From the NCBI GenBank assembly GCA_038210185.1, contig JBBQWX010000002.1, forward strand, positions 10,705 to 74,704: 64,000 bases of DNA, given 5' to 3'. Under the pieces are notes generated by a model. The model was not told the origin of the DNA. It was given only the letters and a program-made list of their open reading frames with translations, and did no database searches. Within the stretch, counting starts at the first letter, position 1. Every line of letters begins with the position of its first letter. Shown here one piece after another: positions 29,541 through 55,910 of the stretch. The DNA is from Actinomycetales bacterium (GTDB lineage Bacteria > Actinomycetota > Actinomycetes > Actinomycetales > Dermatophilaceae). The translations under genes and the position numbers were made by a program.

Positions 29541-31139
29541 GTGACCTCCACCCGCCGCATCCCCGGGCTCGACGCCTCGGCCAAGATCCGGCTGGCCTTC
29601 GTGGTGCTGAGCGGGCTGCTGGCGTTCGACCAGGACTCCGTGCCGAGGGTGCTGCCGTGGATGCTGCTCGTCCTGGTGCTCGACCTGGTCATCGTCGGGC
29701 TCGACGGCCTGCCGGTCTCCCGACGCGGCGTCATGAACACGATGGTCCTCTCCCTGCTGTGCGTCGAAGCCGGCGCGGCCGGTGCCGGCTACGCGATCGC
29801 CGGGCCGGGCGCGGTCCTGCTCATCCTCGTCCCGACGTACCACGCAGGAACCAAGTACGGACGGTTCGGCTTCCTGCTCACGTGCGTCATCGCCGGCTTC
29901 GCCTTCTTCGTCTCGGTCTGGCTCTACCCCGTCCCCGACCAGAGCTGGCTCGGGATGCTCGCGTGGCTCGGGGCCGCCCTCACCCTGGGCATCCTCGGGG
30001 CCTGGAACCAACGGCTCACGGCAGAGCAGGAGGCCGACGCCGCCGACCCCGCCGCCCGTGAGGCGATCGAGCTGATCCAGCGCCTGCAGGACCTGGCCGG
30101 GCAGATGTCGACCGGCCTGGACGCCCCGGCGAGCGCGACCCTGGCCCTGGACCTGCTCTCCGCCGAGGTGCCCTCGACCCGCAGCGCCGTCCTCGTGACC
30201 CACGACGCCGAGCACCTGGTGCCCGTCGCCCTGCGCGGTTCGACGCGGGCGCCGTGGCACGTCGCCGAGCACGTCACCGAGCTGCTGCGCACCAACCCCG
30301 CCAGCTGGGTGCCCACCGAGGTCTCCTTCGTCGACGAGCTCGGCCACCGCTGCGCCCTCGTCGTGCCCTTCGCCCTGGGCAACGGGTCGACGACGGTCGT
30401 GGTCGCCGAGCGCCCCGAAGGACGCCCGTTCACCGACACCGAGCGGCGGATCGCCCGCGACGTGACGCGCCGCATCGCCCCCACGCTCCAGGCCGGCCTG
30501 CTGTTCGGCACGCTGCGCCAGTTCGCCAGCCTCGAGGAGCGCAACCGCATCGCCCGCGACATCCACGACGGCATCGCCCAGGAGCTGGCGGCGCTCGGCT
30601 ACCAGGTCGACGCGCTGCGCGCCCAGGCCGGCCCCCCCGGCATCCCGATGCGTGACGGGCTGGACGGGCTGCGCGAGCAGCTCAGCGAGGCGATGGCCGA
30701 CCTGCGCCTGCACATCACCGACCTGCGGGTGGCCGAACGCCCGGGCACCGGGCTGGGAGCGGTGCTCGGCGCCGCGGTCCAGAGCTTCGGCAGCGTGACC
30801 GGCGTGCGCACGACCGTGACGGTGAGCGAGGGCCAGCGACGCATGGACCCCCGGGTCGAGATCCTCATCCACCGCCTCGTCATGGACATCCTCGCCGACG
30901 CCCAGGCCTCCGGGGCCCGCAACGCCTGGGTCACCCTCACGACCTCCGTCGCCGGACCCGCGTGCGTCGACGTGTCGCACGACGGCGACCCGCGCACCGC
31001 TCGGCAGGTCTTCCAGGACCCGGCACTTCACGGGTTGGACGCGACACTCTTCGTACGCTCCGAGCCCAACGGCAGGACCACCGTTAACCTGACGGTGCAG
31101 GAACCCGCGGCGGTCGGGGCCTTCCGCTCGAAGACCTGA
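29541..31139 (+). CDS. Membrane HisKA_3 sensor kinase with GAF-like domain and degenerate HATPase
   Basis: ~5 TM segments; ERNRIARDIHDGIAQEL H-box; N/G boxes not canonical; TACGCT -10 six nt before GTG. Confidence 0.85.
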   Translation: MTSTRRIPGLDASAKIRLAFVVLSGLLAFDQDSVPRVLPWMLLVLVLDLVIVGLDGLPVSRRGVMNTMVLSLLCVEAGAAGAGYAIAGPGAVLLILVPTYHAGTKYGRFGFLLTCVIAGFAFFVSVWLYPVPDQSWLGMLAWLGAALTLGILGAWNQRLTAEQEADAADPAAREAIELIQRLQDLAGQMSTGLDAPASATLALDLLSAEVPSTRSAVLVTHDAEHLVPVALRGSTRAPWHVAEHVTELLRTNPASWVPTEVSFVDELGHRCALVVPFALGNGSTTVVVAERPEGRPFTDTERRIARDVTRRIAPTLQAGLLFGTLRQFASLEERNRIARDIHDGIAQELAALGYQVDALRAQAGPPGIPMRDGLDGLREQLSEAMADLRLHITDLRVAERPGTGLGAVLGAAVQSFGSVTGVRTTVTVSEGQRRMDPRVEILIHRLVMDILADAQASGARNAWVTLTTSVAGPACVDVSHDGDPRTARQVFQDPALHGLDATLFVRSEPNGRTTVNLTVQEPAAVGAFRSKT

Positions 31140-31153
31140 AGGAAGGGGAGCTC

Positions 31154-31807
31154 GTGGCCATCAGTGTCGCCCTCGTGGACGATCATGCCGTCGTGCGGGA
31201 AGCCGTGGCCGGGATGCTCAACGCCCAGGACGGCATCTGGGTCGTCGGCCAGGCCGGCTCGCTCGCCGAGGGCCACTCCCTGGTCGACCGCCTGCTGACG
31301 GTTCCCCCCGAGGGGCGGCTCGTGGCGGTCATCGACGTGACGATGCCCGACGGCAGCGGCCTGTCCCTGGTGCGGTCGGCCCGCGAGCGCTCCAAGGACA
31401 TCGGGCTGGTCGTGCTGACGATGCTCAACGACGACTCAACCCTGCTCGAGGCCCTGGACGCCGGAGCCTCTGCCCTCGTGCGCAAGAGCTCCCCCTCGGA
31501 GCAGGTGATCTCGGCGGTGCGGCGCGCGGCCGAGATGCCGGGCGAGTTCTCCGCGAGCGGCCTCGCGGAGGCCATGCGTCGGCAGGCCGAGACCCCGCAG
31601 ACCAACCTGACCGTTCGCGAGGCCGAGGTGCTGCGGCTGCTCGTCGAGGGGTCGTCGGTGGCGCAGGTGGGCCGTCAGCTGTTCATGAGCCCGTCGACCG
31701 TCAAGACCCACATCGGCAAGATCTACGAGAAGCTCGGCGCGCACAACCGGGCCAGCGCGGTGATCGCGGCGGTCCGGCTCGGGCTGGTCAGCGACATCGA
31801 CCGCTGA
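31154..31807 (+). CDS. NarL/LuxR response regulator
   Basis: LVDDH, VIDVTMPDGSG, LTVREAEVL...TVKTHIGKIYEKLG. Confidence 0.92.
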   Translation: MAISVALVDDHAVVREAVAGMLNAQDGIWVVGQAGSLAEGHSLVDRLLTVPPEGRLVAVIDVTMPDGSGLSLVRSARERSKDIGLVVLTMLNDDSTLLEALDAGASALVRKSSPSEQVISAVRRAAEMPGEFSASGLAEAMRRQAETPQTNLTVREAEVLRLLVEGSSVAQVGRQLFMSPSTVKTHIGKIYEKLGAHNRASAVIAAVRLGLVSDIDR

Positions 31808-31862
31808 GGAGTCCCCTCGGCGAAGCCCTCGGGCCCGACCTACGGGCCCGACCCCGCGGGCC

Positions 31863-32771
31863 TCACAGGCCGCTGAAAGCCTCCATGATGCGGATGCCAC
31901 CGGGGCCGATGATGACGATGAACAGGGCCGGGAAGATGCACAGCAGCAGCGGGAACAGGATCTTGACGGTGACCTTCTGGGCCTTCTCCTCCGCCCGCTG
32001 ACGTCGCGCGATGCGCATCTCACTGGTCTGCTCGCGCAGCACCGCCGCGATCGGCAGACCCATCCGGTCCGCCTGCACGAGGGCGCTGACGAAGTTCTTG
32101 ACCTCCGGGGTCGAGACCCGCTCCCCCAGGGCGGCGAAGGCCTCGCCACGGGACTTGCCGATCTGCATCTCCGAGAGGACCCGCGCGAATTCGCCGCCGA
32201 TCGGACCGGTCACGGTCTTGGCGACCTGCATGATGGCCGCGTCGAACCCCTGGCCGGCCTGGACGCAGACGGTGAGCATGTCGAGCGCGTCGGCCAGGCC
32301 CTTGATCAGCTCCTGCTGACGCTTGGCGCCCAGGTTGTAGACCAACAGGTCCGGCAGGAAGAAGGCGGCGAGACCCGCACCGGCCGCCACCAGGAGCCCA
32401 CGCAACCCGAACCCGAGCAGCACGACGGCCACGAACGCCGCCAGCACCATCGCGATGGCCTTGGCCGCCATGATCCGTTCGAGGTTCCAGCCCGTGGGGT
32501 TGCCCGCCCGATCGAGCGAGCGGGCGATGCGGGCACCGGCTCCGCTCGGGGACAGCCGCACCCCCACCCGCCGCATGGCCTCGACGGCGGGTGCGAGCAG
32601 CCGGTCGCGGGCCGCGAGCTCGTTCTTCGCGACCGACCGCGACGTGGGCTGGTAGTTGAGCAGTTCGAGGGACCGGGCGACTCCGGAGGTCCCACTGGGC
32701 TTGCCGGTGCCCAGGAGCACCACGACGCCGGCCGCCAGCACGATGATCGTGAGTCCCAGGAAGAGCAGCAC
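31863..32771 (-). CDS. tadC: Tad pilus platform protein TadC
   Basis: LADALDMLTVCVQAG, EFARVL.E...G..R..A, QAD..G.PI...LR.Q, RAEEKAQK..VKILFP. Confidence 0.93.
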   Translation of the reverse strand: MLLFLGLTIIVLAAGVVVLLGTGKPSGTSGVARSLELLNYQPTSRSVAKNELAARDRLLAPAVEAMRRVGVRLSPSGAGARIARSLDRAGNPTGWNLERIMAAKAIAMVLAAFVAVVLLGFGLRGLLVAAGAGLAAFFLPDLLVYNLGAKRQQELIKGLADALDMLTVCVQAGQGFDAAIMQVAKTVTGPIGGEFARVLSEMQIGKSRGEAFAALGERVSTPEVKNFVSALVQADRMGLPIAAVLREQTSEMRIARRQRAEEKAQKVTVKILFPLLLCIFPALFIVIIGPGGIRIMEAFSGL

Positions 32772-32772
32772 C

Positions 32773-34743
32773 TCACACCTCGATCGTGACGGTCTTGCGC
32801 ATCCACCAGATGCCGAACAGCATGGCGAGCAGGCCCATGACGGACATGACGAGCCCCGGCAGCGTGGTCCACAGGAGGCTGACGTAGTCGTAGTTGCTGT
32901 ACATCGAGAAGAGCAGGATGCCGACCGGCAGCGCGACGAGGATGTAGGCCGAGAGTCGACCCTCGGCCGACAAGGCCCGCACGTGCCGCTTGAGCATCTC
33001 GCGCTCGCGCAGCGTGGCCGCCGTCGTGCGCAGGGTGTCGGCGAGGTTGCCGCCCACCTCGCGCTGGATGCGGATGGCCATCACGGCCCAGCGCATGTTG
33101 TCGCTCTCCATCCGGACGGCGACGTGCTCCAGGGCGTCGGAGATGTCGGCGCCGATCCGGGCCTCGGCGAGGGCTCGGGAGAACTCCTTGGCGGCCGGCT
33201 CCGCAGCATCGCGAGCGACCGAGTCCAGGGCCTGGAGCAGCGAGAACCCGCTGGACAGGCTGGTGGCGACGAGCATCATGACGTCGGGGAGCACGGCCTC
33301 GAAGCGCTTGGCCCTGCGGTTCGCCAGGTGGCGCAGTGCGAGCACCGGGAACAGCAGGCCCAAGGCCACCCCGACCGGGATGGCCAGGAGAAGGGACTTG
33401 CCGCCGAGCAGAAGGGCCGACAGGGCGATGCCCACGACGAGACAGACGAAGCGGATGAGGAACCACTCACCGGCCCGCCACGGGAGGTCGGCACGCTCGA
33501 TGCGCTGCATGGTCTTGGTCGTGGACTCGCGACCGGACATCACCCGGTCGCCCATCTGGATCAGCTGCTCGCTGAGCTGGCTCGAGTTGGAGCCCTGGCC
33601 CTTGGCGGCCCCGCCGGCCCCCATCCCGTACTCGTCGATCTCGGCCAGGCGGGCGCGACGCCGCGAGCGGAAGGCCGGCGCGAAGAGGATGACGACCAGG
33701 ATGAAGATGCCCAGGAGCACCGTACCGACGGCGACCGGCAGGAAGGTGCCGGACACGGTGGCGAGCTGCGCCGCTCCGGCCTCACCGTCGAGCACCCCGC
33801 TCGTCAGCGGCCCGAGGGCCGATGTGTCGACGACCGGCTGGCTGGCGGTGACGTCGACCCTCTGCACGGTCTTGAAGCTCTGCCCGCCGGCCGTTCCCTC
33901 GAGCGAGATTTCATAGACCCCCGTCACCCCGGGGGGGACGACGAGGTCGAACCGCACCTGTGAGATCAGGGTCTCGGCGGCCGAGTCGAAGGCGGCCTTG
34001 ACGGCGCCACGGTCGGCGGCGCTGACCACGGTGCCACCGCCGGCCTTCGCGAAGGCGTTCAGCGCAGCCCGGCCGTTCTCGTTCTTGAACGCGATGACCT
34101 CGGCCCGCACCTTCGCGTCGGCCAGGGCTCGGGTGGTGGCGGTGCGGGCCGACTGCTCGTCGCCCGCCACGGTGTCCTCACCGTCGCTGAGCAGGACGAT
34201 GCTGCGCTCGCCGGTGGTGCCGAGCGCGGCGACCGACGTGCGGACGGCCTCGTAGAGCGAGGTCTCGCCGCGGGCCTTCAGCCCGTTGACCGCACGCTGG
34301 ACCTTGCGCCGGTCCGCAGTGGGCTTGACGTCGACGCCGGCGGTGTCGGCGAAGCTCACCACCCCGACCTTGACGTCCTTCGGGATGCCGGCGAGGAAGT
34401 CCTCGACCGCGGCCCGGGTGGTCGCCATCCCCGCCGGGCCCATGGAGCCGCTGGTGTCGATGACGAGCATCGTGGTGCGGGGCGCACTCGTCGCGGGCGA
34501 GATGTTGAACACCGCGGACTTGCTGTCGACCCGGGCGATGACCTGCGTCGTGTCGATCTTCGCGGGGTCGACCCCACGGATGACGAGGGAACCGGTCACG
34601 TGCCCGTCGCCGCTGCGCAGGTCGCTCATGGTCGCCGTCGCGTCGGCCGACGCCGAGGGGGCGGTCAGGGCGAGCGCCGTCAGGGCGAGGGCGGCCAGGC
34701 CCGCGACCCTGGCGAGCACTGGATGACCGGCGCGGAAGCTCAC
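32773..34743 (-). CDS. tadB: vWA domain-TadB fusion
   Basis: Signal peptide, vWA MIDAS DTSGS, TM segment, then the TadB domain (FE..LPD, SG.SL.QAL, IQREVGGNLA, LSAEGRLSA). Confidence 0.92.
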   Translation of the reverse strand: MSFRAGHPVLARVAGLAALALTALALTAPSASADATATMSDLRSGDGHVTGSLVIRGVDPAKIDTTQVIARVDSKSAVFNISPATSAPRTTMLVIDTSGSMGPAGMATTRAAVEDFLAGIPKDVKVGVVSFADTAGVDVKPTADRRKVQRAVNGLKARGETSLYEAVRTSVAALGTTGERSIVLLSDGEDTVAGDEQSARTATTRALADAKVRAEVIAFKNENGRAALNAFAKAGGGTVVSAADRGAVKAAFDSAAETLISQVRFDLVVPPGVTGVYEISLEGTAGGQSFKTVQRVDVTASQPVVDTSALGPLTSGVLDGEAGAAQLATVSGTFLPVAVGTVLLGIFILVVILFAPAFRSRRRARLAEIDEYGMGAGGAAKGQGSNSSQLSEQLIQMGDRVMSGRESTTKTMQRIERADLPWRAGEWFLIRFVCLVVGIALSALLLGGKSLLLAIPVGVALGLLFPVLALRHLANRRAKRFEAVLPDVMMLVATSLSSGFSLLQALDSVARDAAEPAAKEFSRALAEARIGADISDALEHVAVRMESDNMRWAVMAIRIQREVGGNLADTLRTTAATLREREMLKRHVRALSAEGRLSAYILVALPVGILLFSMYSNYDYVSLLWTTLPGLVMSVMGLLAMLFGIWWMRKTVTIEV

Positions 34744-36110
34744 AGACGCGCTCTGAACAACGCGAGCGGCAGGTCGATGCCCAGGTCGCTGAGCTCCTTG
34801 GTGAACTTCGGTCGCAGCCCCGTGCTGACCAGCTGGCCACGGAAACGGCCGTTGTCGTCGCGGCCGGCCGAGAAGTCGAAGGTGAACAGGTCCTGCATGG
34901 TGACGATGTCACCTTCCATGCCGACCACCTCGGTGATGGCGGTGATCCGCCGAGACCCGTCCTTGAGGCGGGCCTGCTGCACGACGAGGTCCAGCGCGCC
35001 GGTGACCTGCTCGCGGATGGCGCGCACGGGGAGGTTCACCCCCGCCATGAGCACCATCGTCTCGAGTCGGGCGAGTGAGTCGCGCGGGCTGTTCGCGTGC
35101 ACGGTCGTGATCGACCCGTCGTGACCGGTGTTCATCGCCTGGAGCATGTCGAGGGCGGCACCGTCACGGACCTCACCGACGACGATCCGGTCGGGGCGCA
35201 TGCGCAGCGAGTTCTTGACCAGGTCGCGGATGTCGATCTCGCCCCGTCCCTCGATGTTCGGCGGTCGCGACTCCAGGCGCAGCACGTGCTCCTGGTGCAG
35301 CTGCAGCTCGGCAGCGTCCTCGATCGTGATGATCCGCTCGTCGGCGGGGATGAAGGAGGAGATGACGTTGAGCGTCGTGGTCTTGCCCGAGCCGGTGCCG
35401 CCGGAGATGACGATGTTGCGACGACCGAGCACACAGGCCTTGAGGAAGTCGCGCACGGCCGGCGAGAACGTGCCGAACGCGATCAGGTCGGCGTCGTTGA
35501 ACGGGTCCTTGGAGAACTTGCGGATCGTGAGCATCGCGCCGTCGAGCGCGATCGGCGAGACGACGGCGTTGACCCGGGAGCCGTCGGGCAGTCGGGCGTC
35601 GACGAGCGGGCTCGCCTCGTCGACACGACGACCCACGCGCCCGACGATCTTGTCGATGACCCGACGCAGGTGCGCCTCGCTCGAGAACTGGGTCTCGACG
35701 GGGTAGAGCTTGCCGGCCCGCTCGACGTAGATCGAGTCCGGTCCGTTGACCATGATCTCGGTGATCTCCGCGTCACGCAGGAGGGGCTCGAGGGGCCCGT
35801 GGCCGAGGATCTCGTCCGACACCTCCTGCGCGATGCGGGTGCGGTCCGCGTGCGAGAGCGGGGTCTGCTCGGAGTCGATGGTGCTCTGCAGGGTCTGGCG
35901 CACCTGCGCTGCGAGCTCGGACTCGGGCAGGTGCGGGTCGTAGAGCCGGGGGCCCAGGCTCTCGATCAACGCCTGGTGCACGCGTTCCTTGACCTCGCCG
36001 AAGGGGTCGACCGTGCGTCGCTTGGTGGGGGAACCGGGCGGGCCGGTCGTGTCGCCGGCGGGTGCCGGTTGGGAACGCCGGGCACTGTCGAGTCGGTCAG
36101 CGAGACTCAT
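34740..36110 (-). CDS. cpaF: Tad secretion ATPase TadA/CpaF
   Basis: GGTGSGKTT, TIEDAAEL, LRMRPDRIVVGEVR, AMNTGHDG. Confidence 0.96.
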   Translation of the reverse strand: MSLADRLDSARRSQPAPAGDTTGPPGSPTKRRTVDPFGEVKERVHQALIESLGPRLYDPHLPESELAAQVRQTLQSTIDSEQTPLSHADRTRIAQEVSDEILGHGPLEPLLRDAEITEIMVNGPDSIYVERAGKLYPVETQFSSEAHLRRVIDKIVGRVGRRVDEASPLVDARLPDGSRVNAVVSPIALDGAMLTIRKFSKDPFNDADLIAFGTFSPAVRDFLKACVLGRRNIVISGGTGSGKTTTLNVISSFIPADERIITIEDAAELQLHQEHVLRLESRPPNIEGRGEIDIRDLVKNSLRMRPDRIVVGEVRDGAALDMLQAMNTGHDGSITTVHANSPRDSLARLETMVLMAGVNLPVRAIREQVTGALDLVVQQARLKDGSRRITAITEVVGMEGDIVTMQDLFTFDFSAGRDDNGRFRGQLVSTGLRPKFTKELSDLGIDLPLALFRARL

Positions 36111-38055: not shown

Positions 38056-38107
38056 CACAATTCCTTCAACAATGGTTGTTCGAGTGGTGCGCAGGCGCTG
38101 TGCACAG

Positions 38108-47243: not shown

Positions 47244-47638
47244 GGCCCGACGGCTACTGGCTCGGCCTCGTCGGCGGCCTCGTCGTGCTCGCGATGTCGC
47301 TCGAGCTGGTGCGGCGACGCCACGTGCGGGGCCGCCTCGCGATCGCGTGGCTCGTCCTCGGTTCCGTCGCCGTCGTCTTCGCCATCTTCCCGTCGGCGCT
47401 GGGGTGGGTGACCGCGACCCTGCACGTCCAGATCCCCCTGAACCTCATCCTGTTCACCGGGGTGCTCTTCCTCCTCGTCATCTCGATGCAGCTGGCCTCG
47501 GAGGTCGGCCGCCTCGAGTCGCGCACCCGTCGGCTGGCCGAGGAGGTCGCCATCCTGCGCGCCGACCTCGACGCGGCCGACGAAGACCGCCGGGCGGACG
47601 GCGGGAACCCGGACGCCACGGGCGGCGCACCGTCGTGA
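47240..47638 (+). CDS. DUF2304 membrane protein (Rv3632-like)
   Basis: 3 TM segments, LVRRR, W, FP, N, RLE.R.RRLAEEVA.L; coupled to the GT2. Confidence 0.88.
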   Translation: MRPDGYWLGLVGGLVVLAMSLELVRRRHVRGRLAIAWLVLGSVAVVFAIFPSALGWVTATLHVQIPLNLILFTGVLFLLVISMQLASEVGRLESRTRRLAEEVAILRADLDAADEDRRADGGNPDATGGAPS

Positions 47639-48630: not shown

Positions 48631-49643
48631 GGCCGTCGCAGGGGCACGGCGTCGTCGTCCTAGCCGCCTACCACCCCGATCCCGAGCTCTTCGCGGTGCA
48701 GCTGCGATCGATCCGCGACCAGTCCCGGCCCGACTTCCGCTGCCTGATCGGCGCTGACGGCGGGCAGGCCGAGGTGCGAGCGCTCGTCGCCGAGGTGGTC
48801 GGGGGTGATGACCGCTTCGAGGTCGTCGGGTGGGACGACAACCTCGGCTTCTACCTGAACTTCGAGCGCCTGCTCGCCCTCGTGCCCGAGGACGTCTCGT
48901 GGGTCGCGCTGAGCGACCAGGACGACCGCTGGTACCCCGACAAGCTCCAGCGCCTGGTGCCTCTGCTTGATGATGTGACGCTGGCCACGGGGCAGGCGCG
49001 GGTCGTCGAGTGGCCGGGAGACCGCATCGTGCTGGAGCGGACGGACCGAAGGGTGGTCCCGGCGGAAGACCTCCTCATTCAGAACCAGGTGACGGGGGCG
49101 CTGAGCGTTCTGCGGCGCGAGCTGCTCGACCTTGCGCTGCCGTTCCCCAGGCTGCACACCGTGACCCAGCTGCACGACCATTGGCTGGCCATGTGCGCGG
49201 TCGTGGGCGGTGGCTACGACGTGCTGGACGAGACCGTTCAGGACTACGTCCAGCACGATGGCAACCAAGTGGGTGAGGTTGCCCTCCACCGCGGGTGGAC
49301 GCCCGCGGGTTTCATCCGGCGGACCCTGGAGCTTGGCGACACCTACGAAGGCGCTCGCGATGTGGCAGCCTGTGCCCGCGCATGCCAGACGCAGAGCTTC
49401 GAATGGCGCCGTCTCGTCCTCGCCACGTTGGTAGGCAGGACCGGTCGGCTCCCGACCTCGCTCGCCCGAGAGCATGGACGATTGCGACGGGACGCCCCAG
49501 CGCGGACCATCGTGCCGCTGCTCTGGCGAGCCACTCGTTCCCCCAACAGCTCGCCGTGGGTCGTGGCGACTTTCGTCCCGGGAATCCCCTACGAGGTCAT
49601 CGTGCGTCACCGGACGCGGCAGGGGCGCCCGCGGAAAGGCTGA
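48627..49643 (+). CDS. GT2 glycosyltransferase (rhamnosyltransferase-like)
   Basis: QL.SI..Q, NLGFY.NFER, LSDQDD.WYPDKL, NQVTGA, HDHW, YVQH.GN. Confidence 0.9.
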   Translation: MRPSQGHGVVVLAAYHPDPELFAVQLRSIRDQSRPDFRCLIGADGGQAEVRALVAEVVGGDDRFEVVGWDDNLGFYLNFERLLALVPEDVSWVALSDQDDRWYPDKLQRLVPLLDDVTLATGQARVVEWPGDRIVLERTDRRVVPAEDLLIQNQVTGALSVLRRELLDLALPFPRLHTVTQLHDHWLAMCAVVGGGYDVLDETVQDYVQHDGNQVGEVALHRGWTPAGFIRRTLELGDTYEGARDVAACARACQTQSFEWRRLVLATLVGRTGRLPTSLAREHGRLRRDAPARTIVPLLWRATRSPNSSPWVVATFVPGIPYEVIVRHRTRQGRPRKG

Positions 49644-49647: not shown

Positions 49648-50904
49648 TCAGGGCGCCCCCGGATGGCGAGTGCGCAGGACGGTTGTGATCTGCACGCCGA
49701 GGATGCCGGCCTCCACGGCGAGGACAGTCCACACCACGCCGATGGGCCCAAAAAGTCGGCCTGCAACGAGGCCGCCTACGACTAGGAGGATGGCTCCGGC
49801 GGCGGTCGACCGCGCCAACTCATTGCGCCCACCGAAGGGGACAAGAACAGCGAGCGCGTTGACCTGCGTGACAAGCAGCACCCCCACAAGCAGGGAAAAG
49901 ACCAGGACCTGGCTGGAGTCCACCGTGACCGTACCCGCGGACAGCAGCGTGGCCGCCGGGGCAGCGAGGAGCCCGAAGCACAGCGCCGCCGTAAGACCCC
50001 CGACAACCGCACCACCCAAAGCGCGAAGCCCTCGCGACCGAAGACCTTCGGGCGAGCCGGCCGGAACCCAGCGCTGGACGACCTGGAGTATCGGGGCCGC
50101 CCCGGCGATCACGTACTTGACCATCCGGTCGAGCAACAGGAACGACGGCACCTGGGGCGAGCCGGTCGCCGCGAGCAGCAGTGATGATCCGTAACTGTTC
50201 ACTCCGCCGGCCAGACCCGCGGCCAGCAGAGTCGAATTCTCGCGCAGGTACGTTCGGACTGCGAGCTCGCCAACCGGCGACTGCTCGACGTCCAGGTCGC
50301 AACGCACGGCCCGCAACACGCGGATCGCCGCCACGGCGGCGCCGGCGAAGAACGGCAGAGCAAAAGCGAGCGCGGCTCCCGTCCCGAGCGCAGCAGCCAC
50401 TCCTACGAGTGTCCCCACCGCGAGCGGAAGCACTTCAATCATGAGCCACCGCCCGGGCTGACCCCGGCCGACGAAGTACCACGCCCCACCGAGTCCAGCG
50501 AGAAGGGCTCCGCACGCCACGACGGCAGCTGCCGCGCCGTCACGGGGCGCAAGCAGCCACGCCAAAGGCCCGATGACGATCGCTACGATCCCAAACAGTC
50601 GAGTCCGCGCGCCCACCGAGGAGAGGTAGAGCGCGGGCTGGCCACCGGACGGAGTCAGGGCCACCACGGAGGCACCGAAGCTGCCGAGCCCCGCGGTCAC
50701 GATCGTCGTGCAGAGCAGCCCCGCGGCCTGAGCGACGTTGAGCGTGCCCCACGAGGCAGGCCCCAGTGCCTTTAGCAGGCCCGCGGTCTGCACAAGGCCG
50801 ACGATGGTCTGGACGACGAGAATGAGACCGAAACCGGATAGGTCCCACCCTCCGCGGCCCCGACGCGAAGCGGCACCCAAGCCCGGCAGCCCCGCGCCAC
50901 CCAC
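49648..50904 (-). CDS. Wzx/MATE-like oligosaccharide flippase
   Basis: ~12 TM segments, LGP..WG, W...G.G; start uncertain. Confidence 0.7.
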   Translation of the reverse strand: MGGAGLPGLGAASRRGRGGWDLSGFGLILVVQTIVGLVQTAGLLKALGPASWGTLNVAQAAGLLCTTIVTAGLGSFGASVVALTPSGGQPALYLSSVGARTRLFGIVAIVIGPLAWLLAPRDGAAAAVVACGALLAGLGGAWYFVGRGQPGRWLMIEVLPLAVGTLVGVAAALGTGAALAFALPFFAGAAVAAIRVLRAVRCDLDVEQSPVGELAVRTYLRENSTLLAAGLAGGVNSYGSSLLLAATGSPQVPSFLLLDRMVKYVIAGAAPILQVVQRWVPAGSPEGLRSRGLRALGGAVVGGLTAALCFGLLAAPAATLLSAGTVTVDSSQVLVFSLLVGVLLVTQVNALAVLVPFGGRNELARSTAAGAILLVVGGLVAGRLFGPIGVVWTVLAVEAGILGVQITTVLRTRHPGAP

Positions 50905-50906: not shown

Positions 50907-51677
50907 TCAGCGCCGACCGCGCGCACGAGCGATCGATCCGGCAGCCGCGACGAGCACGACGACGCACCTCCAGTAGCGGATCGCTACCTGCTGGAACGCA
51001 TCCTCGTTGCCTACCACTCGGGCAAGAGCCCGCACGGGCGCGCGGAGTGCCTTTTCGCGCGGTGGCATCAGGTCGGCCAAGTCGTCGACCACAGTTGGCT
51101 CCGGCAGGGTTGCGCACGGCGCGGACGGCGCTGACGTCACGGGCGTCCTGACGCCCACGAAGTACAGGTCCGCCGCCACAGGGGCGTAGTGCAGCCTCCA
51201 GGACGAGAACCACTCGTCGAGCGGCAGCGCGCGCACCTCTGCGGGCGAGATGTTCCGGTAGTGGTCAAGTCCCACAGACTGCGTCCCGGGCGACTCCCTT
51301 GCGGTGGTCCGGCTCGTCCCATGCTCGATTCGCCCTCGTGATGCACAGGTGAACGCCACAAGTCCTCCGGGGCGGGTCACTCTCACCATCGTCGCGAAGG
51401 TCCGACGCCAGTGCGGGTCGTGCTCGAAGCATTCGCCCGAGACTGTGACGTCCCACGAGCCGTCCGGGTCATCGATGATGCTTCCGTCCCCTACCCGGTC
51501 AACGCCCGGACCTTCCACAAGGTCGACACCCACATACTCATCGGCCCCCGAAAAGAGCCGGCGCACACTCCCGTTGACGTCATAGGAACCGACCTCAAGT
51601 ACTCGCGATCCATTCACCAGCGGGCGGTTTGCCGACACGCACGCTGCGATGAAGCCCAACTGCTCGGGATGGCTCAC
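50907..51677 (-). CDS. Class I SAM-dependent methyltransferase (glycan-associated type)
   Basis: VLEVGSYDVNGSVR, YVGVD...GPGVD, ECFEH, RVTRPGG. Confidence 0.88.
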   Translation of the reverse strand: MSHPEQLGFIAACVSANRPLVNGSRVLEVGSYDVNGSVRRLFSGADEYVGVDLVEGPGVDRVGDGSIIDDPDGSWDVTVSGECFEHDPHWRRTFATMVRVTRPGGLVAFTCASRGRIEHGTSRTTARESPGTQSVGLDHYRNISPAEVRALPLDEWFSSWRLHYAPVAADLYFVGVRTPVTSAPSAPCATLPEPTVVDDLADLMPPREKALRAPVRALARVVGNEDAFQQVAIRYWRCVVVLVAAAGSIARARGRR

Positions 51678-51987: not shown

Positions 51988-53727
51988 TCATCTGACGCAT
52001 GACGAAAGAACACCTGACCTCGTGGTGTCCGCCACGACGAGGGAGCTCGCACCAGGAGCAACCGACCGCACCTGGTAAAGCCCTGCCGGCAGCCGCGGGG
52101 CCCGGACGCCGGACACGCCGCCGAACTCGTCGTGGAGAGACAGCCCGATGCTCGAAGTGCGGGACACCTTGAACACCGGTGATGGGGAAGCCAGTGGAAC
52201 GGCCAGCTCCTGGATGCCGGTGCCTGAGCACTGGACCGCACTTGGCGGCAGTGCTTCGAGCACCACCTGACCAGCGAGCCTCGCGCTCATCTGGTCTGCC
52301 TGCGTCACTTCGCTCGTGACTTGGGACAGGTCGAGGGAGGCCAGGTCCGCGGGCGACAGGAAGGCGAACTCGGCGGTCGCTGCCATCTCGTCGAGCAGGG
52401 GCTCTCCGGAACGCTGCATCTGTTGCCCTGCTGCGAGGGTCCGGGCGGTGGTGCGAGTCAGGTCGGACCACTCCTCGGCGACTGGCCACCAGGTGATGGC
52501 ATTGGCCGCTGCCAGGACACCCACCGCGGTGAGCGTAGCCGTCCGCGCTCGCCGGTGCCCCGCCACGAGTCGGGTGAGGAAGCAGATCAGGAACGGCAGG
52601 AGGAAAGCGGTGCCGACGTAGGTGTACCGGGACAGCATCGCGTAGCCCAGTCCGTACTCCACCCGCCAGATGCTGCTCAGCACCACGACCGCGGGCAGTC
52701 CGAGCAGGAACACGGTCACCATGCGATCCGGCCGCAGTCCGCGCTCTCGTTCCGTGGCCAAGAGGATGACGAGCAGGAGCGCCACACCGGCGCAGGCCAG
52801 GAGGGCCGCCGCCGGATCGAGCCCTGTCGTGACGGCATCCTCAGCCGACCGCCACGGCACGACCGAGACCATCGCGTTGCCAACCCCCATCGCCCAGTAC
52901 AGCGGCAGCAGGAGCAGCTGCTCGACGGAACGGGGCTCGCCCGCGGCTGCCGGAGTCTGCACCGCGTACCACGCGAGGAAGACCATAGTGGGCGGGGCGA
53001 GCATCCACAGCTCACGGTTGCGCCGTTGAACGGCGAGCAACAGGCACGAGAGGGAGAGGAACACCGGCGCCAGCCCGAAGGTCATGACGTTGAGCACCGA
53101 GAGCACGATGACGATCGCGGGGCGGGGCCGGGGGCTGTTCAGCTCGAGAATGGTCGCCGTTCCGAGAACCATGCTCCCGACCAGGCCCATCTGGACCGAG
53201 AACAGGATGTCCTCGACCCCCGCGCCGTACAGCGCGAACCCGGCGGCCGCGATCGTGGCGAACCACAGGTCACTGCCTCCGCGGACTGCCACCCGCCACA
53301 GGAGATGGCACAGGACCAGGTGCAGGAGGATGGTCACTGCGACGTAGGGCCATACGGAGCCGGCGCCCGCAGTGAAGCCGAGCAGCGAGAACACGAGCTT
53401 GGGTAACAGGATCCAGTGTTCGTTGTGCGGCGCCAAGAGCCAGGACACCGAGAAGTCACCGCGATTCAGCGCGGCGATCAGTGCCCAGTCGTCGTAGTAG
53501 AACTGGAGCCCGCGCGCGGGCCACGCGATCACTCCGGCGGCCAGCAACAGCGATGACACGTGGACGGCCAGAGCCGCGCCTGTGAACCCGGTTCCTGCCG
53601 TCCCGTTCATGGCCTCCGGAAAGGCTCCGTCGTCAGGACGTTGCGCCTGCGCCGGGGACGCCCCCAGCGGCTCGGAACCCACCGACGGCTGACCCAGCGT
53701 GACCTCGTCGTTCCTCGGCACCGACAA
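51988..53727 (-). CDS. Polytopic GT-C-like membrane protein
   Basis: YYDDWAL..PHNEHW...PK loop, ~11 TM segments, SRY.Y, C-terminal soluble domain. Confidence 0.65.
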   Translation of the reverse strand: MSVPRNDEVTLGQPSVGSEPLGASPAQAQRPDDGAFPEAMNGTAGTGFTGAALAVHVSSLLLAAGVIAWPARGLQFYYDDWALIAALNRGDFSVSWLLAPHNEHWILLPKLVFSLLGFTAGAGSVWPYVAVTILLHLVLCHLLWRVAVRGGSDLWFATIAAAGFALYGAGVEDILFSVQMGLVGSMVLGTATILELNSPRPRPAIVIVLSVLNVMTFGLAPVFLSLSCLLLAVQRRNRELWMLAPPTMVFLAWYAVQTPAAAGEPRSVEQLLLLPLYWAMGVGNAMVSVVPWRSAEDAVTTGLDPAAALLACAGVALLLVILLATERERGLRPDRMVTVFLLGLPAVVVLSSIWRVEYGLGYAMLSRYTYVGTAFLLPFLICFLTRLVAGHRRARTATLTAVGVLAAANAITWWPVAEEWSDLTRTTARTLAAGQQMQRSGEPLLDEMAATAEFAFLSPADLASLDLSQVTSEVTQADQMSARLAGQVVLEALPPSAVQCSGTGIQELAVPLASPSPVFKVSRTSSIGLSLHDEFGGVSGVRAPRLPAGLYQVRSVAPGASSLVVADTTRSGVLSSCVR

Positions 53728-53932: not shown

Positions 53933-54987
53933 ATGACCGCAACGACCTCGACTACGCCCGAGGGCCCCCTGCGCACGGGGCGCGGCGGCCGGTGACCGGA
54001 TGGCGATGGATCGCCGTGCCCCTGGCCATCTACGTCGCCACCGCGTCGTCACCAGCTTGTTCCTCGCGTGGGCCGCCCGTGCCCAGGCGGCGCTACCTCT
54101 CGACTCGTCGATCTGGTTGACCGAGCCCCTGCCCGCTGCGCCGTCTCTGCTCGAGGTCAGCACCAACTGGGACGGCCAGTGGCAATGGCAGATCGTGCAG
54201 TACGGCTATCCGGGCAACCCACCTCCCGCCGGCTCGCGCATCCCGCAGTCTCCCTTAGCTTCTACCCCGGCTATCCCACCATCGTCGACGGCTTCATGAG
54301 CGTCACCGGCGCCGCCTTCCCACTCGCTGCGGTGATGGTGTCGCTCGTAGCGGGCGCGTCGCAGAGGCGTTGTTCCACCAGCTCCTGCTCCGAACCGTGT
54401 CGCCGTTCGTCGCGACGGCCAACATCACGCTGCTGTGTGCCTGGCCGGGCGCGGTCGTCATGCAGACCGGCTATCCCGAGTCATCGGCCCTGCTCCTCAT
54501 CGTTCTGGCAGTGCGCTGGATGATGCTGCGGCACAGGCCCTGGCGGGCGTAGCCGTTGTCCCCCTCGGTTTCGTGCGACCTCTCACCGTGCCGGTCGCAG
54601 TTGTGGTCGTCGCGCACGCGGTCACCCGGTGGCGTGAGTCGGGCGACCTGGACGCTTGCACCTGCGGGCGCCTCGCTCTACCTCTGCTGGCGTGCGGCGT
54701 CGGTACGGTCACCTGGCCTTTCGAGGCCGCGTGTGGTCAGGCTCCTACGTCTCTTGATCGTTCTAGTGACGGCAATGCCGACCATCGGGATCGTCCGCTA
54801 CTCGCTCTTGGCCCTCGTGCCGTTCTGGCCGTTCCCCGATGACAGTCGCCCGGAACGTGCGAGCGACCGGCGTGCCCGTTGGGTCGCGATTGCCGTGCTT
54901 GTTGCCCTGGCGCTCGCCGGGCAGTACTGGTGGGTGGCGGACGTCTTCACCATCGACCAGTCACCGCTGCTGCAGTCCTACCCGTGA
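53933..54987 (+). pseudogene. Frameshifted PIG-V/GT76-like mannosyltransferase
   Basis: Motifs NWDGQW..I.QYGYP, FYPGYP, Y.ES and RY.L lie in successive different frames; in-frame TAG at 54550-54552. Confidence 0.8.
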
Positions 54988-55051
54988 CTCGGCGCCACCA
55001 GGCGACAGCCCGGAGCCGAATGCCGTGGGCGCACCACGGCATCTGGCCGCC

Positions 55052-55212
55052 GTCCGTCTTCCCGAAAAGGTTCGATCTGCGCGATCGCCAGGTGCGAGAA
55101 GGAGTTCGACATGACGAACGACGAGTGCCCGGCGGCGGTGCTCAGGTTCATCGGTCGGGCCTCGGACGGCACGATGAGCGAGTCATCGTTGTCGCAAATC
55201 CACGCGTGCCCC
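55052..55212 (-). pseudogene. Decayed duplicate of the ahcY 3' region
   Basis: Translates [46 protein letters not shown] vs Ahc[47 protein letters not shown] (about 56125-56285). Confidence 0.92.
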
Positions 55213-55262
55213 TCGTGCTCGGCAACCGGCGCCGCTCTTGAGGCAGCTCGAGCAGCGGGTGA

Positions 55263-55775
55263 TCAGACGGACTGGTTGGCGTCGGGTCGCCCGGCCGCGG
55301 TCGGCGGTGGCAGGGTCCCGAGGATCGCGTCTAGCCGCGTGCCCGCAGCACGATAGGCGTCGCCCATCCGGCCGAGGAGGACCAGTCCGAGGAGGGCGAG
55401 AACCGCCCCCAGCTGCGCGCGCTCCAGGTCCATGCCGTGGATGCCGTGCAGCCACATGACGGCGGCCACGCTCACGAGGGCCCCCACCCCCCAGACCTGA
55501 AGGATGCGCGAGGTCGCAGAGTCGTCTGGCCACAGGGCCCGCACGACGAGAGAGACGGTCAGTGCGGCCGCGACCTGCGCGGCGAGGATGGCGGCACGCG
55601 CCGAGACCGGAAACAGCGATGACGCGGTCACGACGCCCAAGCACCCCACCTGCACGAGAAGGCGCGACGACCGCGGCGTGAGGAGAGGGCCGCGCACAGC
55701 CGCCGTGACCTGGACGAGGGGCCCCGACACGAGCGAGTCGGCACCGGCGGTGCGGACGTCAGCGTCGCGCATCAT
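55263..55775 (-). CDS. Hypothetical membrane protein (~4 TM)
   Basis: AAGGAGG RBS, 170 aa, hydrophobic segments; no family recognised. Confidence 0.6.
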   Translation of the reverse strand: MMRDADVRTAGADSLVSGPLVQVTAAVRGPLLTPRSSRLLVQVGCLGVVTASSLFPVSARAAILAAQVAAALTVSLVVRALWPDDSATSRILQVWGVGALVSVAAVMWLHGIHGMDLERAQLGAVLALLGLVLLGRMGDAYRAAGTRLDAILGTLPPPTAAGRPDANQSV

Positions 55776-55815
55776 GGCAGACCCCTCCTTGACCCCAAGA
55801 ACTGCAAAACCCCCG

Positions 55816-55840
55816 CCTGAGGAAAGTATGACCCCTCAGG
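55816..55840. promoter_or_regulatory. Inverted repeat over the putative -10 of the 170-aa gene
   Basis: CCTGAGG-N11-CCTCAGG enclosing TACTTT/CATACT on the minus strand. Confidence 0.4.
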
Positions 55841-55878
55841 AGCGCGTTGGTAAGCGATTGCGGGAATGCCGACACGAC

Positions 55879-55910
55879 GAGGCGCCGCCGGACAGGTCCG
55901 GCGGCGCCTC
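55879..55910 (-). terminator. Stem-loop downstream of ahcY
   Basis: GAGGCGCCGCCGGAC-AG-GTCCGGCGGCGCCTC, 15-bp perfect stem. Confidence 0.85.

What the first reader, a model, noticed from the sequence alone, without database searches (positions are those of the whole stretch)
29541..55910. Tad/Flp pilus operon embedded in a GT-C-rich glycosylation island between ahcY and mtrA
Seen: flp-flp-cpaB-cpaE-cpaF-tadB-tadC directly adjoins at least seven GT-C-like genes (one decayed), three GT2s, DUF2304, a flippase and a methyltransferase. No recognisable Wzy, Wzz or LCP ligase is present. Established: ahcY-(tmk)-mtrA is normally near-contiguous in Actinobacteria, GT-C enzymes use lipid-linked sugars outside the membrane, and Aggregatibacter Flp1 is glycosylated. 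Inference: a dedicated pathway that builds a short, possibly O-methylated, lipid-linked glycan and attaches it to pilins or other surface proteins in a monoderm. I do not recognise this as a described system.
Basis: partly seen in the sequence, partly recalled or inferred. Interest (0 to 1): 0.8.

Follow-up and report, generated by a model that had tools for sequence, protein, structure and literature searches.

The report
Tad pilus locus with glycosyltransferases
A soil actinobacterium's adhesive Tad/Flp pilus genes sit beside membrane sugar-transferring enzymes from an unannotated family that occurs almost only in relatives with this pilus and usually next to the pilin genes, so it probably sugar-coats the pilus, though no experiment shows this.

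Summary
Window 31863-38561 (-) encodes a complete Tad operon: flp, flp, cpaB, cpaE, cpaF, VWA-tadB, tadC. It lies between mtrA and ahcY in a Dermatophilaceae MAG. Next to it are polytopic membrane genes, three GT2s, DUF2304, a methyltransferase and a Wzx-like gene.

Only four genes inside the span are demonstrably GT-C. A has a confident AF2 model that matches STT3, ArnT, Aft and PglB. B and C are its paralogs. D is GT87. Protein E gave a confident model with no PDB match, and H is unassignable.

The key result is comparative:
- In 78 loci from many genera, flp is the Tad gene nearest A in 68, across four orientation classes.
- In an unbiased sample of 101 family genomes, A occurs in 21 of 45 Tad+ genomes and 0 of 56 Tad- genomes.
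- A or C occurs in 34 of 45 Tad+ versus 3 of 56 Tad- genomes.
- The GT2a/GT2b/GT2c/MT/flippase block also travels with A in distant genera.

The glycosylation genes are therefore functionally tied to the Tad pilus. That Flp pilin is the acceptor is the most economical inference but is untested. The closest precedent is TfpW. No paper describing this for Tad pili was found.

The parts
28749..29429 (-). mtrA (OmpR-type response regulator), left conserved flank
   Evidence: Pfam Response_reg 4e-31 and Trans_reg_C 5e-27. 88-97% identical in congeners.
29598..31139 (+). Sensor kinase (GAF + HisKA_3) that travels with the Tad locus. No HATPase_c domain detected. Start approximate.
   Evidence: Pfam. 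Conserved next to tadC in type I loci and inside the Nocardioides Tad loci.
31154..31807 (+). LuxR-type response regulator paired with that kinase
   Evidence: Pfam Response_reg and GerE. Synteny.
31863..32771 (-). tadC (T2SSF platform protein)
   Evidence: Pfam T2SSF 9e-19.
32773..34743 (-). tadB with an N-terminal VWA domain fused
   Evidence: Pfam VWA_2 3e-18 and T2SSF 1e-19. The fusion is conserved across the family.
34740..36110 (-). cpaF/tadA secretion ATPase
   Evidence: Pfam T2SSE 1e-64.
36107..37285 (-). cpaE/tadZ ParA-like ATPase
   Evidence: Pfam AAA_31, ParA, CbiA.
37288..38058 (-). cpaB/rcpC
   Evidence: Pfam RcpC 3e-18.
38108..38278 (-). flp2 pilin. Mature form is 38-39 aa after G|ATAVEY and contains N-L-S.
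   Evidence: Pfam Flp_Fap 1e-10. Sequence. Start codon.
38382..38561 (-). flp1 pilin. Mature form is 39 aa after G|ATAVEY.
   Evidence: Pfam Flp_Fap 3e-15. Sequence. Start codon.
38748..40118 (-). Protein A: 456-aa GT-C-fold glycosyltransferase of a family not covered by Pfam. It lies directly upstream of flp1 on the same strand.
   Evidence: No Pfam or NCBIfam hit for A or for 40 homologs. AF2 pLDDT 93. Foldseek hits STT3, ArnT, AftB, AftD, AftA, DPY19 and PglB. Invariant D37 after TM1. Linkage statistics.
40172..41686 (+). Protein B: paralog of A and C, divergent from A with 53 bp between the start codons
   Evidence: hhalign B vs C probability 99.1%, E 5.5e-19, full length. Start codons.
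41668..43101 (+). Protein C: paralog of A, overlapping the end of B
   Evidence: hhalign A vs C probability 99.6%, E 1.3e-24. The C family is found in 28 of 45 Tad+ and 3 of 56 Tad- family genomes.
43071..44396 (-). Protein D: GT87 (GT-C, PimE-type) glycosyltransferase. Start uncertain (44294-44396).
   Evidence: Pfam GT87 2e-24, above the cut-off.
44538..46400 (+). Protein E: rare polytopic protein of at least 14 helices plus a C-terminal domain. It is the first gene of the E-GT2a-DUF2304-GT2b-GT2c operon. GT-C status is not supported.
   Evidence: 11 homologs in 5.8e9 proteins. AF2 pLDDT 79, pTM 0.85. Best PDB match E 0.17, TM about 0.1.
46410..47243 (+). GT2a: DPM1/GtrB/PpgS-like GT2, candidate polyprenyl-phosphate-sugar synthase
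   Evidence: Pfam Glycos_transf_2 1e-15. Paired with DUF2304 here and in about 24 of the 78 A loci.
47240..47638 (+). DUF2304 small membrane protein. Its start overlaps the GT2a stop by 4 nt.
   Evidence: Pfam DUF2304 1.6e-22. Start codon.
47635..48630 (+). GT2b glycosyltransferase with a 4-nt overlap with DUF2304
   Evidence: Pfam GT2 families. NCBIfam weak MftF-like hit. Start codon.
48627..49643 (+). GT2c glycosyltransferase with a 4-nt overlap with GT2b
   Evidence: Pfam Glycos_transf_2 1e-9. Start codon.
49648..50904 (-). Protein F: polytopic, Wzx/RfbX-like candidate flippase. Start could be 50793-50904.
   Evidence: No Pfam hit. JGI names three homologs 'O-antigen/teichoic acid export membrane protein'. 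Co-travels with MT and the GT2s in L025 and L055.
50907..51677 (-). SAM-dependent methyltransferase, abutting F
   Evidence: Pfam Methyltransf_23 and Methyltransf_11, E 2.5e-6 and 1.4e-5.
51988..53727 (-). Protein H: 8-11 TM segments plus a C-terminal domain of about 190 aa. Family unknown.
   Evidence: No Pfam, NCBIfam or PDB sequence hit. No homolog in any fetched locus.
54024..54984 (+). Decayed polytopic gene, as two out-of-frame fragments
   Evidence: blastx to a 445-aa 7-TM protein of congener G023: 34-41% identity, E 6e-7 and 4e-9. That protein has no Pfam hit.
55020..55230 (-). Relic of the ahcY 3' end, a recombination scar at the island border
   Evidence: 53-64% identical to ahcY residues about 406-474. 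Similar relics in G002 and G010.
55263..55775 (-). Protein K: 170-aa, roughly 4-TM protein of unknown function
   Evidence: Hydropathy. 48% homolog at the same place in G012. No Pfam hit.
55943..57394 (-). ahcY, right conserved flank
   Evidence: Pfam AdoHcyase 6e-145.
57510..58592 (-). Second GT87-like gene, outside the stated span. Its N-terminus looks degenerate.
   Evidence: Pfam GT87 9e-9, 35.8 bits against a cut-off of 25.

Best explanation
This is a Tad (type IVc) pilus locus of a monoderm actinobacterium (Dermatophilaceae). It carries its own extracytoplasmic glycosylation machinery.

Shown:
- The core enzyme is protein A, an 11-helix GT-C-fold transferase with an invariant Asp in the first outer loop.
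- A is encoded immediately upstream of the pilin genes.
- B and C are its paralogs, and D is a GT87.

Inferred mechanism:
1. GT2a with DUF2304 makes a polyprenyl-phosphate sugar on the cytoplasmic face.
2. GT2b, GT2c and the methyltransferase may extend and methylate a lipid-linked glycan.
3. F, the Wzx-like protein, flips that glycan across the membrane.
4. At the outer face, A transfers sugar to the short exposed C-terminal tail of membrane-anchored Flp pilin before assembly. The tail is about 15 residues long, with conserved S29 and S/T30 and often N27-x-S29.
5. B, C and D then elongate the glycan.

The gene set differs between species. This would give each species a different pilus glycan.
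For: Identity of the parts:
- Tad genes and glycosylation domains come from Pfam.
- A's model has pLDDT 93. It matches only GT-C enzymes: STT3, ArnT, AftA/B/D, DPY19 and PglB, with E 1e-4 to 7e-3.
- D37 is invariant in 40 homologs.
- A, B and C are homologous to one another.

Linkage in loci found through A (78 loci):
- 67 of 78 loci have an Flp motif within 7 kb of A, and 30 of these lie within 400 bp.
- flp is the Tad gene nearest A in 68 loci, and tadC in 3.
- The orientation classes are co-directional (30), divergent (28) and convergent (9).
- Five gene orders occur, spanning Dermatophilaceae and Nocardioides.
- In 13 loci a C/B paralog also follows tadC on the same strand.

Unbiased family sample of 101 genomes:
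- A occurs in 21 of 45 Tad+ and 0 of 56 Tad- genomes, Fisher p 1.5e-9.
- A or C occurs in 34 of 45 Tad+ versus 3 of 56 Tad- genomes, p 5e-14.

Other observations:
- No paralog of A-E or H lies elsewhere in this genome.
- The GT2a-GT2b-GT2c-MT-F block recurs beside A in other gene orders (L022, L025, L055, L073, L079).
- The G020 congener lost Tad and island together, leaving a tadC remnant.
- Start/stop overlaps of 4 nt link GT2a, DUF2304, GT2b and GT2c.

Precedent from the literature:
- Flp1 of A. actinomycetemcomitans is reported as glycosylated (PMC6182317).
- TfpW is a pilin-adjacent GT-C that glycosylates a type IVa pilin (bioRxiv 10.1101/2020.04.19.049825).
Against: - There is no direct evidence that any Flp here is modified.
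- The Caulobacter Tad pilus shows no glycan density by cryo-EM (PMC10710030).
- The conserved S/T/N positions in the Flp tail are also typical of Flp pilins in general. They do not discriminate.
- The N-x-S/T sequon is present in only 54% of the pilins and is absent from Flp1 of this window.
- 11 of 45 Tad+ family genomes lack A and C, and congener G009 has Tad without any such gene. The modification is therefore dispensable.
- Some C paralogs lie far from Tad (G136, G087).
- In gene order III, mtrAB-lpqB separates A from flp.
- A hairpin lies between A and flp1, so co-transcription is not assured.
- No priming enzyme for a lipid-linked oligosaccharide was found in the window.
- E and H are unassigned.
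- Loci from related genomes are not phylogenetically independent.
Confidence: 0.55

Rival explanations
1. The enzymes are Tad-linked but do not act on pilin. They might glycosylate another extracytoplasmic Tad component, such as CpaB/RcpC, the VWA domain of TadB, or TadE/TadG-type minor pilins in relatives. They might instead build a pilus-associated adhesive glycan, or locally modify the wall so the pilus can pass.
For: The co-occurrence and adjacency data show a tie to the Tad locus, not to a particular acceptor. Three loci have A after tadC, and 13 have a C/B paralog after tadC. RcpC has been implicated in Flp glycosylation in the literature (PMC12307814), so Tad parts and glycosylation do interact. 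GT-C enzymes can act on lipids, polysaccharides or proteins (one search hits include ArnT and Aft enzymes).
Against: flp is the nearest Tad gene to A in 68 of 71 informative loci, across four orientation classes. This window has no tadE, tadF or tadG genes. Pilin-adjacent placement is what is seen for the known pilin glycosyltransferase TfpW.
Confidence: 0.25
2. This is a general cell-envelope glycan locus, for a lipoglycan or wall polysaccharide, or for decoration of one. It occupies a recombination hot spot next to ahcY and merely neighbours or hitch-hikes with the Tad operon.
For: The region between flp and ahcY is hypervariable among congeners, ranging from 2 to 29 kb with different gene sets, like O-antigen or capsule loci. 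ahcY 3' relics mark repeated recombination. GC3 is lower across 47-55.9 kb. GT2+DUF2304+GT-C modules decorate arabinogalactan in mycobacteria (my own knowledge; not checked here). GT87 enzymes make lipomannan-type glycans. A sits between ahcY and mtrA without an adjacent flp in gene order III.
Against: A is absent from all 56 Tad-negative family genomes. A or C is present in only 3 of them. A stays beside flp in Terrabacter/Intrasporangium and in Nocardioides, where the locus is not at ahcY. Tad and island were lost together in G020 and are both absent in G017. A housekeeping envelope polymer would not be expected to track one pilus operon.
Confidence: 0.15

Closest known systems
TfpW of Pseudomonas aeruginosa/paraeruginosa group IV strains (pilA-tfpW-tfpX)
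   Same: Both are polytopic GT-C-type glycosyltransferases encoded directly next to the major pilin gene. TfpW uses a polyprenyl-phosphate sugar to modify pilin outside the cytoplasm (bioRxiv 10.1101/2020.04.19.049825). In both cases the accessory genes vary between strains.
   Different: TfpW serves a type IVa pilin with a globular head in a diderm. Here the partner is a 39-aa Flp pilin of a Tad (IVc) system in a monoderm. There are several paralogous GT-Cs plus a GT2/MT/flippase branch. Sequence relatedness to TfpW was not tested, and activity is unproven.
STT3/AglB/PglB oligosaccharyltransferases and the Haloferax Agl pathway
   Same: A's best structural matches include STT3 and PglB. The island's inventory mirrors AglJ/G/I/E, AglP, AglR, AglS and AglB as reviewed in PMC3871713. 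That inventory is a DPM1-like GT2, further GT2s, a methyltransferase, a Wzx-like protein and extra GT-Cs. Archaeal type IV pilins are AglB substrates (my own knowledge).
   Different: There is no PF02516 hit and no WWDYG motif. A has only a roughly 100-residue C-terminal domain with its own motif, W-x-x-[ND]-P-x-D-A-F. TM-scores of about 0.5 fit ArnT and Aft enzymes equally well. A sequon is not conserved in all the pilins.
Three-component lipid-carrier glycosylation systems (GtrA/B/C; CsbB/GtcA/YfhO; mycobacterial PpgS-Rv3632-Rv3779)
   Same: A GT2 of the DPM1/GtrB type is coupled to a small membrane protein (DUF2304), with polytopic transferases next door.
   Different: Those systems decorate O-antigen, teichoic acids or arabinogalactan and are not tied to a pilus. 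Here the adjacent large protein E did not show a GT-C fold. The verified GT-Cs (A, B, C) belong to a different, unannotated family.
Actinobacterial GT-C mannosyl/arabinosyltransferases (PimE/GT87, AftA-D, Emb)
   Same: D is a GT87 member. A's fold matches AftA, AftB, AftD and PimE.
   Different: Those enzymes build PIM, LM, LAM and arabinogalactan and are housekeeping genes in Mycobacteriales. Here A, B and C are accessory genes restricted to genomes with this Tad locus.

Membership tests
Tad/Flp (type IVc) pilus system | Flp-family prepilin with a G/XXXXEY processing site | tested here: met
   Two PF04964 hits above the cut-off. Both read ...G|ATAVEY....
Tad/Flp (type IVc) pilus system | CpaF/TadA ATPase, TadB and TadC platform proteins, and CpaE/TadZ | tested here: met
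   T2SSE 1e-64, two T2SSF proteins and a ParA-like ATPase, contiguous on one strand.
Tad/Flp (type IVc) pilus system | Dedicated prepilin peptidase (TadV/CpaA, Peptidase_A24) | tested here: met
   Not in the locus. One PF01478 match above the cut-off lies elsewhere in the genome, at G000:C100:9951-10283.
GT-C glycosyltransferase superfamily (protein A) | Polytopic GT-C fold | tested here: met
   AF2 pLDDT 93, pTM 0.92. The top 20 Foldseek PDB hits are all GT-C enzymes, with probability about 1.0 and TMq 0.4-0.54.
GT-C glycosyltransferase superfamily (protein A) | Conserved acidic residue in the first extracytoplasmic loop | tested here: met
   D37 lies in the G-A-D-L-x-W motif just after TM1 and is invariant in 40 homologs. 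That the loop faces outward is inferred from the positively charged N-terminus.
GT-C glycosyltransferase superfamily (protein A) | Uses a polyprenyl-phosphate-linked sugar donor | not testable with these tools
   Supported only by context: GT2a and DUF2304 are nearby.
GT-C glycosyltransferase superfamily (proteins B, C) | Homology to a verified GT-C | tested here: met
   hhalign A vs C 99.6% and B vs C 99.1%, over the full length.
GT-C glycosyltransferase superfamily (protein E) | Polytopic GT-C fold or GT-C family profile | tested here: not met
   No Pfam, NCBIfam or PDB sequence hit. The model (pLDDT 79, pTM 0.85) has no PDB fold match; the best has E 0.17.
GT87 (protein D) | Pfam PF09594 above the gathering score | tested here: met
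   86.9 bits against a cut-off of 25, covering the full profile 1-237.
STT3/AglB/PglB oligosaccharyltransferase (GT66) | PF02516 match and a WWDYG motif in a C-terminal domain | tested here: not met
   No Pfam hit for A or for 40 homologs, even at E 0.1. The conserved C-terminal motif is W-x-x-[ND]-P-x-D-A-F, not WWDYG.
TfpW-type pilin glycosyltransferase | GT-C enzyme encoded adjacent to the major pilin gene | tested here: met
   A is 186 nt upstream of flp1. flp is the nearest Tad gene in 68 of 78 loci.
TfpW-type pilin glycosylstransferase | Sequence homology to TfpW and demonstrated pilin glycosylation | not tested
Activity needs experiments.
Gtr-type three-component glycosylation system | GtrB/DPM1-like GT2 plus a small membrane partner plus a GT-C transferase | tested here: inconclusive
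   GT2a and DUF2304 are present and translationally coupled. The adjacent E is not a recognisable GT-C. A, B or C could be the transferase. No GtrA-family flippase was found.
Wzx/Wzy-dependent polysaccharide pathway | Priming phosphoglycosyltransferase, Wzx, Wzy, and a chain-length regulator or ligase | tested here: not met
   There is only a Wzx-like candidate, named as such by a source for homologs. No PGT, Wzy_C, Wzz or LCP domain was found in the ORFs scanned. A divergent Wzy among E and H cannot be excluded.

The most novel reading that the evidence does not exclude
A is the transferring enzyme of a bacterial, archaeal-style protein glycosylation route dedicated to Tad pilins. In this reading a glycan is built on a polyprenyl monophosphate by a DPM1-like GT2 plus further GT2s and is methylated. 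A Wzx-like protein flips it. An OST-like GT-C then transfers it to the Flp tail, and paralogous GT-Cs finish it outside the membrane. The step order would parallel AglJ/G/I/E, AglP, AglR, AglB and AglS of Haloferax. The unannotated A/B/C superfamily has about 10,300 clusters at 50% identity. It would then be a major, overlooked class of pilin glycosyltransferases accompanying the archaeal-derived Tad machinery.
Probability: 0.15. Interest if true: 0.85.

Novelty: new variant of a known kind. Interest (0 to 1): 0.66.

Why it matters
Tad/Flp pili drive adhesion, biofilm formation and, in Micrococcus, DNA uptake. They are usually treated as bare filaments of a roughly 40-residue pilin. Flp glycosylation has been reported in Aggregatibacter, but I know of no identified enzyme, and my literature searches found none. 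A GT-C family that tracks the Tad locus this tightly gives a concrete candidate enzyme and several cultured strains in which to test it. If confirmed, it would explain how such tiny pilins acquire surface diversity, for example against phages or for adhesion specificity. It would also assign a function to a superfamily of about 10,300 clusters with no Pfam model.

Tried and rejected
- Pfam and NCBIfam scans of A, B, C, E, F, H and K gave nothing usable, even at E up to 5. The same held for 40 A homologs and for nine large polytopic proteins in congeners' islands.
- Sequence searches of PDB with the A profile, E, H and F gave nothing.
- E as an Rv3779-like GT-C is rejected for now. The model is confident but has no GT-C match.
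- I looked for a pilin sequence signature of glycosylation. N27-x-S/T29 occurs in 54% of 112 distinct 39-aa pilins. It exceeds shuffles (66 versus 41±4.6), but shared ancestry at one position explains that, so I treat it as inconclusive.
- Profile searches of genomes with alignment A1 failed twice on the server. I used single proteins instead.
- An hhalign sweep of all polytopic ORFs timed out and was replaced by hmmsearch.
- One exact-sequence look-up (P0095) found no record.
- I did not look for RNA-seq runs to test co-transcription, so that question stays open.

Full report
**What is in the window**

The DNA is about 72% G+C. I called genes by codon-position G+C and then by Pfam and NCBIfam. 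On the minus strand the conserved actinobacterial backbone reads secA, hpf, comF, lpqB, mtrB, mtrA (about 28749-29429). ahcY (55943-57394) follows about 26 kb further on. Beyond it lie a weak GT87 gene, a CDF-like transporter, ybaK, a PGI-like gene and PMM.

Between mtrA and ahcY lie, in order:
- A GAF/HisKA_3 kinase and a LuxR-type regulator (+).
- A complete Tad operon on the minus strand: flp1 38382-38561, flp2 38108-38278, cpaB, cpaE, cpaF, a VWA-tadB fusion and tadC.
- Protein A (38748-40118, -).
- B and C (+).
- D, a GT87 (-).
- E, GT2a, DUF2304, GT2b and GT2c (+), with 4-nt start/stop overlaps from GT2a onward.
- Methyltransferase then F on the minus strand.
- H (-).
- Fragments of a decayed polytopic gene.
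- A relic of the ahcY 3' end (55020-55230).
- A small membrane gene, K.

A prepilin peptidase is encoded on another contig. The best-named relatives are Ornithinibacter and Oryzobacter, in the Dermatophilaceae/Intrasporangiaceae.

**How many genes are really GT-C**

A has no Pfam or NCBIfam match, and neither do 40 of its homologs. An AlphaFold2 model built on a 40-sequence alignment is very confident (pLDDT 93, pTM 0.92). Its significant Foldseek matches in the PDB are exclusively GT-C enzymes: STT3, ArnT, AftB, AftD, AftA, DPY19 and PglB, followed by PimE, Pmt and Emb. An Asp just after the first helix (D37) is invariant. So are a W-x-N-x-H-G motif and a C-terminal W-x-x-[ND]-P-x-D-A-F motif.

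Profile-profile comparison shows that A, B and C are full-length paralogs: A vs C 99.6% (E 1e-24) and B vs C 99.1% (E 5e-19). D is a bona fide GT87.

E belongs to a very rare family, with 11 homologs among 5.8 billion proteins. It folds confidently (pLDDT 79, pTM 0.85) but has no structural match at all. I therefore do not count it as GT-C. H has no relatives in any locus I fetched and no family hit. F is called a flippase only because JGI names three homologs as O-antigen/teichoic acid exporters.

That leaves four verified GT-C genes inside the span and a fifth, weak GT87 just outside it.

**Is the adjacency to Tad meaningful? Within the genus**

The order ahcY, variable island, flp...tadC, regulator, kinase, mtrA is conserved. 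The island itself ranges from about 2 kb to about 29 kb, and its gene sets mostly differ.
- G017 has ahcY directly next to the regulator/kinase/mtrA, with neither Tad nor island.
- G020 retains only a tadC remnant and no island.
- G009 has Tad without any A/B/C-type gene.
- Every other Tad-bearing congener has an A/B/C-family gene beside flp.
- Relics of the ahcY 3' end here and in G002 and G010 mark repeated recombination at that border.

**Is the adjacency to Tad meaningful? Across genera**

A scan of one genome per species with the A profile found 268 relatives and returned 78 loci.
- In 67 of the 78 loci an Flp motif lies within 7 kb of A, and in 30 within 400 bp. CpaF is present in 63.
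- flp is the Tad gene nearest A in 68 loci, tadC in 3, and none was seen in 7, several of which are short contigs.

The link holds through at least five gene orders:
1. C<B<A>flp>...tadC> (Oryzobacter, Phycicoccus, Nostocoides).
2. C<tadC<...<flp<flp< A> GT2a>DUF2304> (Terrabacter, Intrasporangium; not at ahcY).
3. ahcY>A>mtrA>mtrB>lpqB>flp>... (Pedococcus and others).
4. C<A>flp<flp<RR<HK<tadC<... (Nocardioides, a different order).
5. ...tadC>A> (Flexivirga).

An annotated example, Nostocoides sp. Soil756, shows two unknown genes, GT87, A, Flp, Flp, TadE, TadG, RcpC, CpaE, CpaF, VWA-TadB and TadC all on one strand, with the A start overlapping the GT87 stop. The GT2a-GT2b-GT2c(-MT-F) block of this window also recurs beside A in other gene orders: L022, L025, L055, L073, L078 and L079.

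**An unbiased test**

I sampled 101 genomes of the family at 90% completeness or better, without conditioning on A.
- An orthologous CpaF (E ≤ 1e-120) is present in 45 genomes.
- A is present in 21, all of them Tad+, and in none of the 56 Tad- genomes. Fisher p = 1.5e-9.
- In 15 of the 21, A lies within 7 kb of cpaF. In 18 it is on the same contig within 18 kb.
- The C family occurs in 28 Tad+ and 3 Tad- genomes. One of the three is a fragment and one is weak.
- A or C is present in 34 of 45 Tad+ versus 3 of 56 Tad- genomes, p = 5e-14.
- Of 16 A-negative Tad loci that I fetched, 9 still carry a B/C-family or GT87 gene within 10 kb.
- In this genome A-E and H have no paralogs elsewhere.

These counts are not phylogenetically independent. 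Even so, the variety of arrangements and the complete absence from Tad-less genomes argue for a functional tie, not chance adjacency.

**Mechanism**

Shown:
- A Tad operon.
- A GT-C enzyme with a conserved first-loop Asp next to the pilin genes.
- Paralogs B and C, plus a GT87.
- A DPM1/GtrB-type GT2 translationally coupled to DUF2304.
- Two further GT2s, a methyltransferase and a Wzx-like protein.

Inferred:
- The GT2a/DUF2304 pair supplies a polyprenyl-phosphate sugar.
- The GT-C enzymes act on the outer face of the membrane.
- The acceptor is the exposed C-terminal tail of Flp, which sits in the membrane before assembly.

The pilins of A-linked loci are almost all 39 residues long, with G25 invariant, F32 nearly so (110 of 112), S29 in 76% and S/T30 in 68%. 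N27-x-S/T29 occurs in 54%. These positions also resemble Flp pilins in general, so they prove nothing.

Literature:
- Flp1 of A. actinomycetemcomitans is described as glycosylated (PMC6182317).
- RcpC has been implicated in that process (PMC12307814).
- Large glycans were once proposed to explain Flp pilus diameter (PMC6370729).
- The Caulobacter Tad pilus shows no glycan density (PMC10710030).
- TfpW is a GT-C next to pilA that arabinosylates a type IVa pilin (bioRxiv 10.1101/2020.04.19.049825).
- I found no paper that links GT-C enzymes to Tad loci.

**Rivals**

1. The enzymes are Tad-linked but act on another Tad component, or they make a pilus-associated glycan. The data tie them to the locus, not to an acceptor. 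The strong bias toward the flp end favours pilin.
2. This is a general envelope-glycan locus at a recombination hot spot. Hypervariability, the ahcY relics and the lower GC3 of 47-55.9 kb fit this. The absence of A from every Tad-less genome does not, nor does the retention of A beside flp away from ahcY.

**Comparison and novelty**

In function the closest known system is TfpW. In fold A resembles STT3, PglB, ArnT and Aft enzymes, but it fails the GT66 membership test: no PF02516 hit and no WWDYG motif. The island's inventory resembles the Haloferax Agl pathway (PMC3871713). This motivates the boldest reading, an OST-like en bloc transfer, to which I give 15%.

The A profile recovers about 10,300 clusters at 50% identity, 2,798 of them at E ≤ 1e-10. 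The superfamily is therefore large and unannotated. Earlier notes of this scan report similar GT-C/Tad pairings in other phyla. I did not test those, and they are not independent evidence.

I classify the finding as a new variant of a known kind: pilin-linked GT-C glycosylation, here for Tad pili in monoderm Actinobacteria. The tie to Tad is well supported. Pilin as the acceptor is inference only.

Noticed in passing
window 55020-55230 (-); also G002:C20:241732-242062 and G010:C7:748468-748951: Decayed second copies of the ahcY 3' end lie just inside the island border in three congeners. This suggests that the island is exchanged by recombination anchored in ahcY.
   Followed up: partly
window 32773-34743 (-): TadB carries an N-terminal VWA domain (residues about 81-250) fused to the T2SSF platform domain. 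The fusion is conserved across Dermatophilaceae Tad loci, for example Nostocoides L020. Its role is unknown.
   Followed up: no
window 44538-46400 (+): Protein E is a polytopic protein of at least 14 helices with many invariant charged and aromatic residues (DRR, YPxxFH, QGH, YYFxK). It has only 11 homologs in 5.8 billion proteins. Its model is confident (pTM 0.85) with no PDB fold match. It may be a new membrane-enzyme fold.
   Followed up: partly
window 38678-38701 (-): A perfect 10-bp stem hairpin (GACATCGGCC-GAAC-GGCCGATGTC) lies in the 186-nt gap between the A stop and the flp1 start. It could be a terminator or a regulatory element separating A from the pilin genes.
   Followed up: no
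window 29598-31139 (+): The kinase that travels with the Tad locus shows GAF and HisKA_3 domains but no HATPase_c hit at E<0.01. This agrees with another first-reader note that it may lack ATP-binding motifs.
   Followed up: no
window 47000-55900: GC3 (0.75-0.84) and overall G+C (0.685-0.70) are lower here than in the rest of the window (GC3 about 0.9). This suggests that the ahcY-proximal half of the island was acquired more recently.
   Followed up: no
L009:3297-6065 (G006, next to ahcY): In one congener the island begins with a GAF-GGDEF-EAL protein, a c-di-GMP enzyme placed beside a pilus/adhesion locus.
   Followed up: no
G000:C2:6-710, C6:16171-17028, C224:3-554, C54:2-2255: The genome holds several further CpaF-like ATPases and a second TadB/TadC pair. 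None has A/B/C-family genes detectable nearby by tblastn.
   Followed up: partly
L001:7413-8984 (G009) and L004:7230-8666 (G002): Some congeners have a single-TM protein of about 480-520 aa between flp and cpaB that this window lacks. It is probably TadG-like, as in Nostocoides.
   Followed up: no
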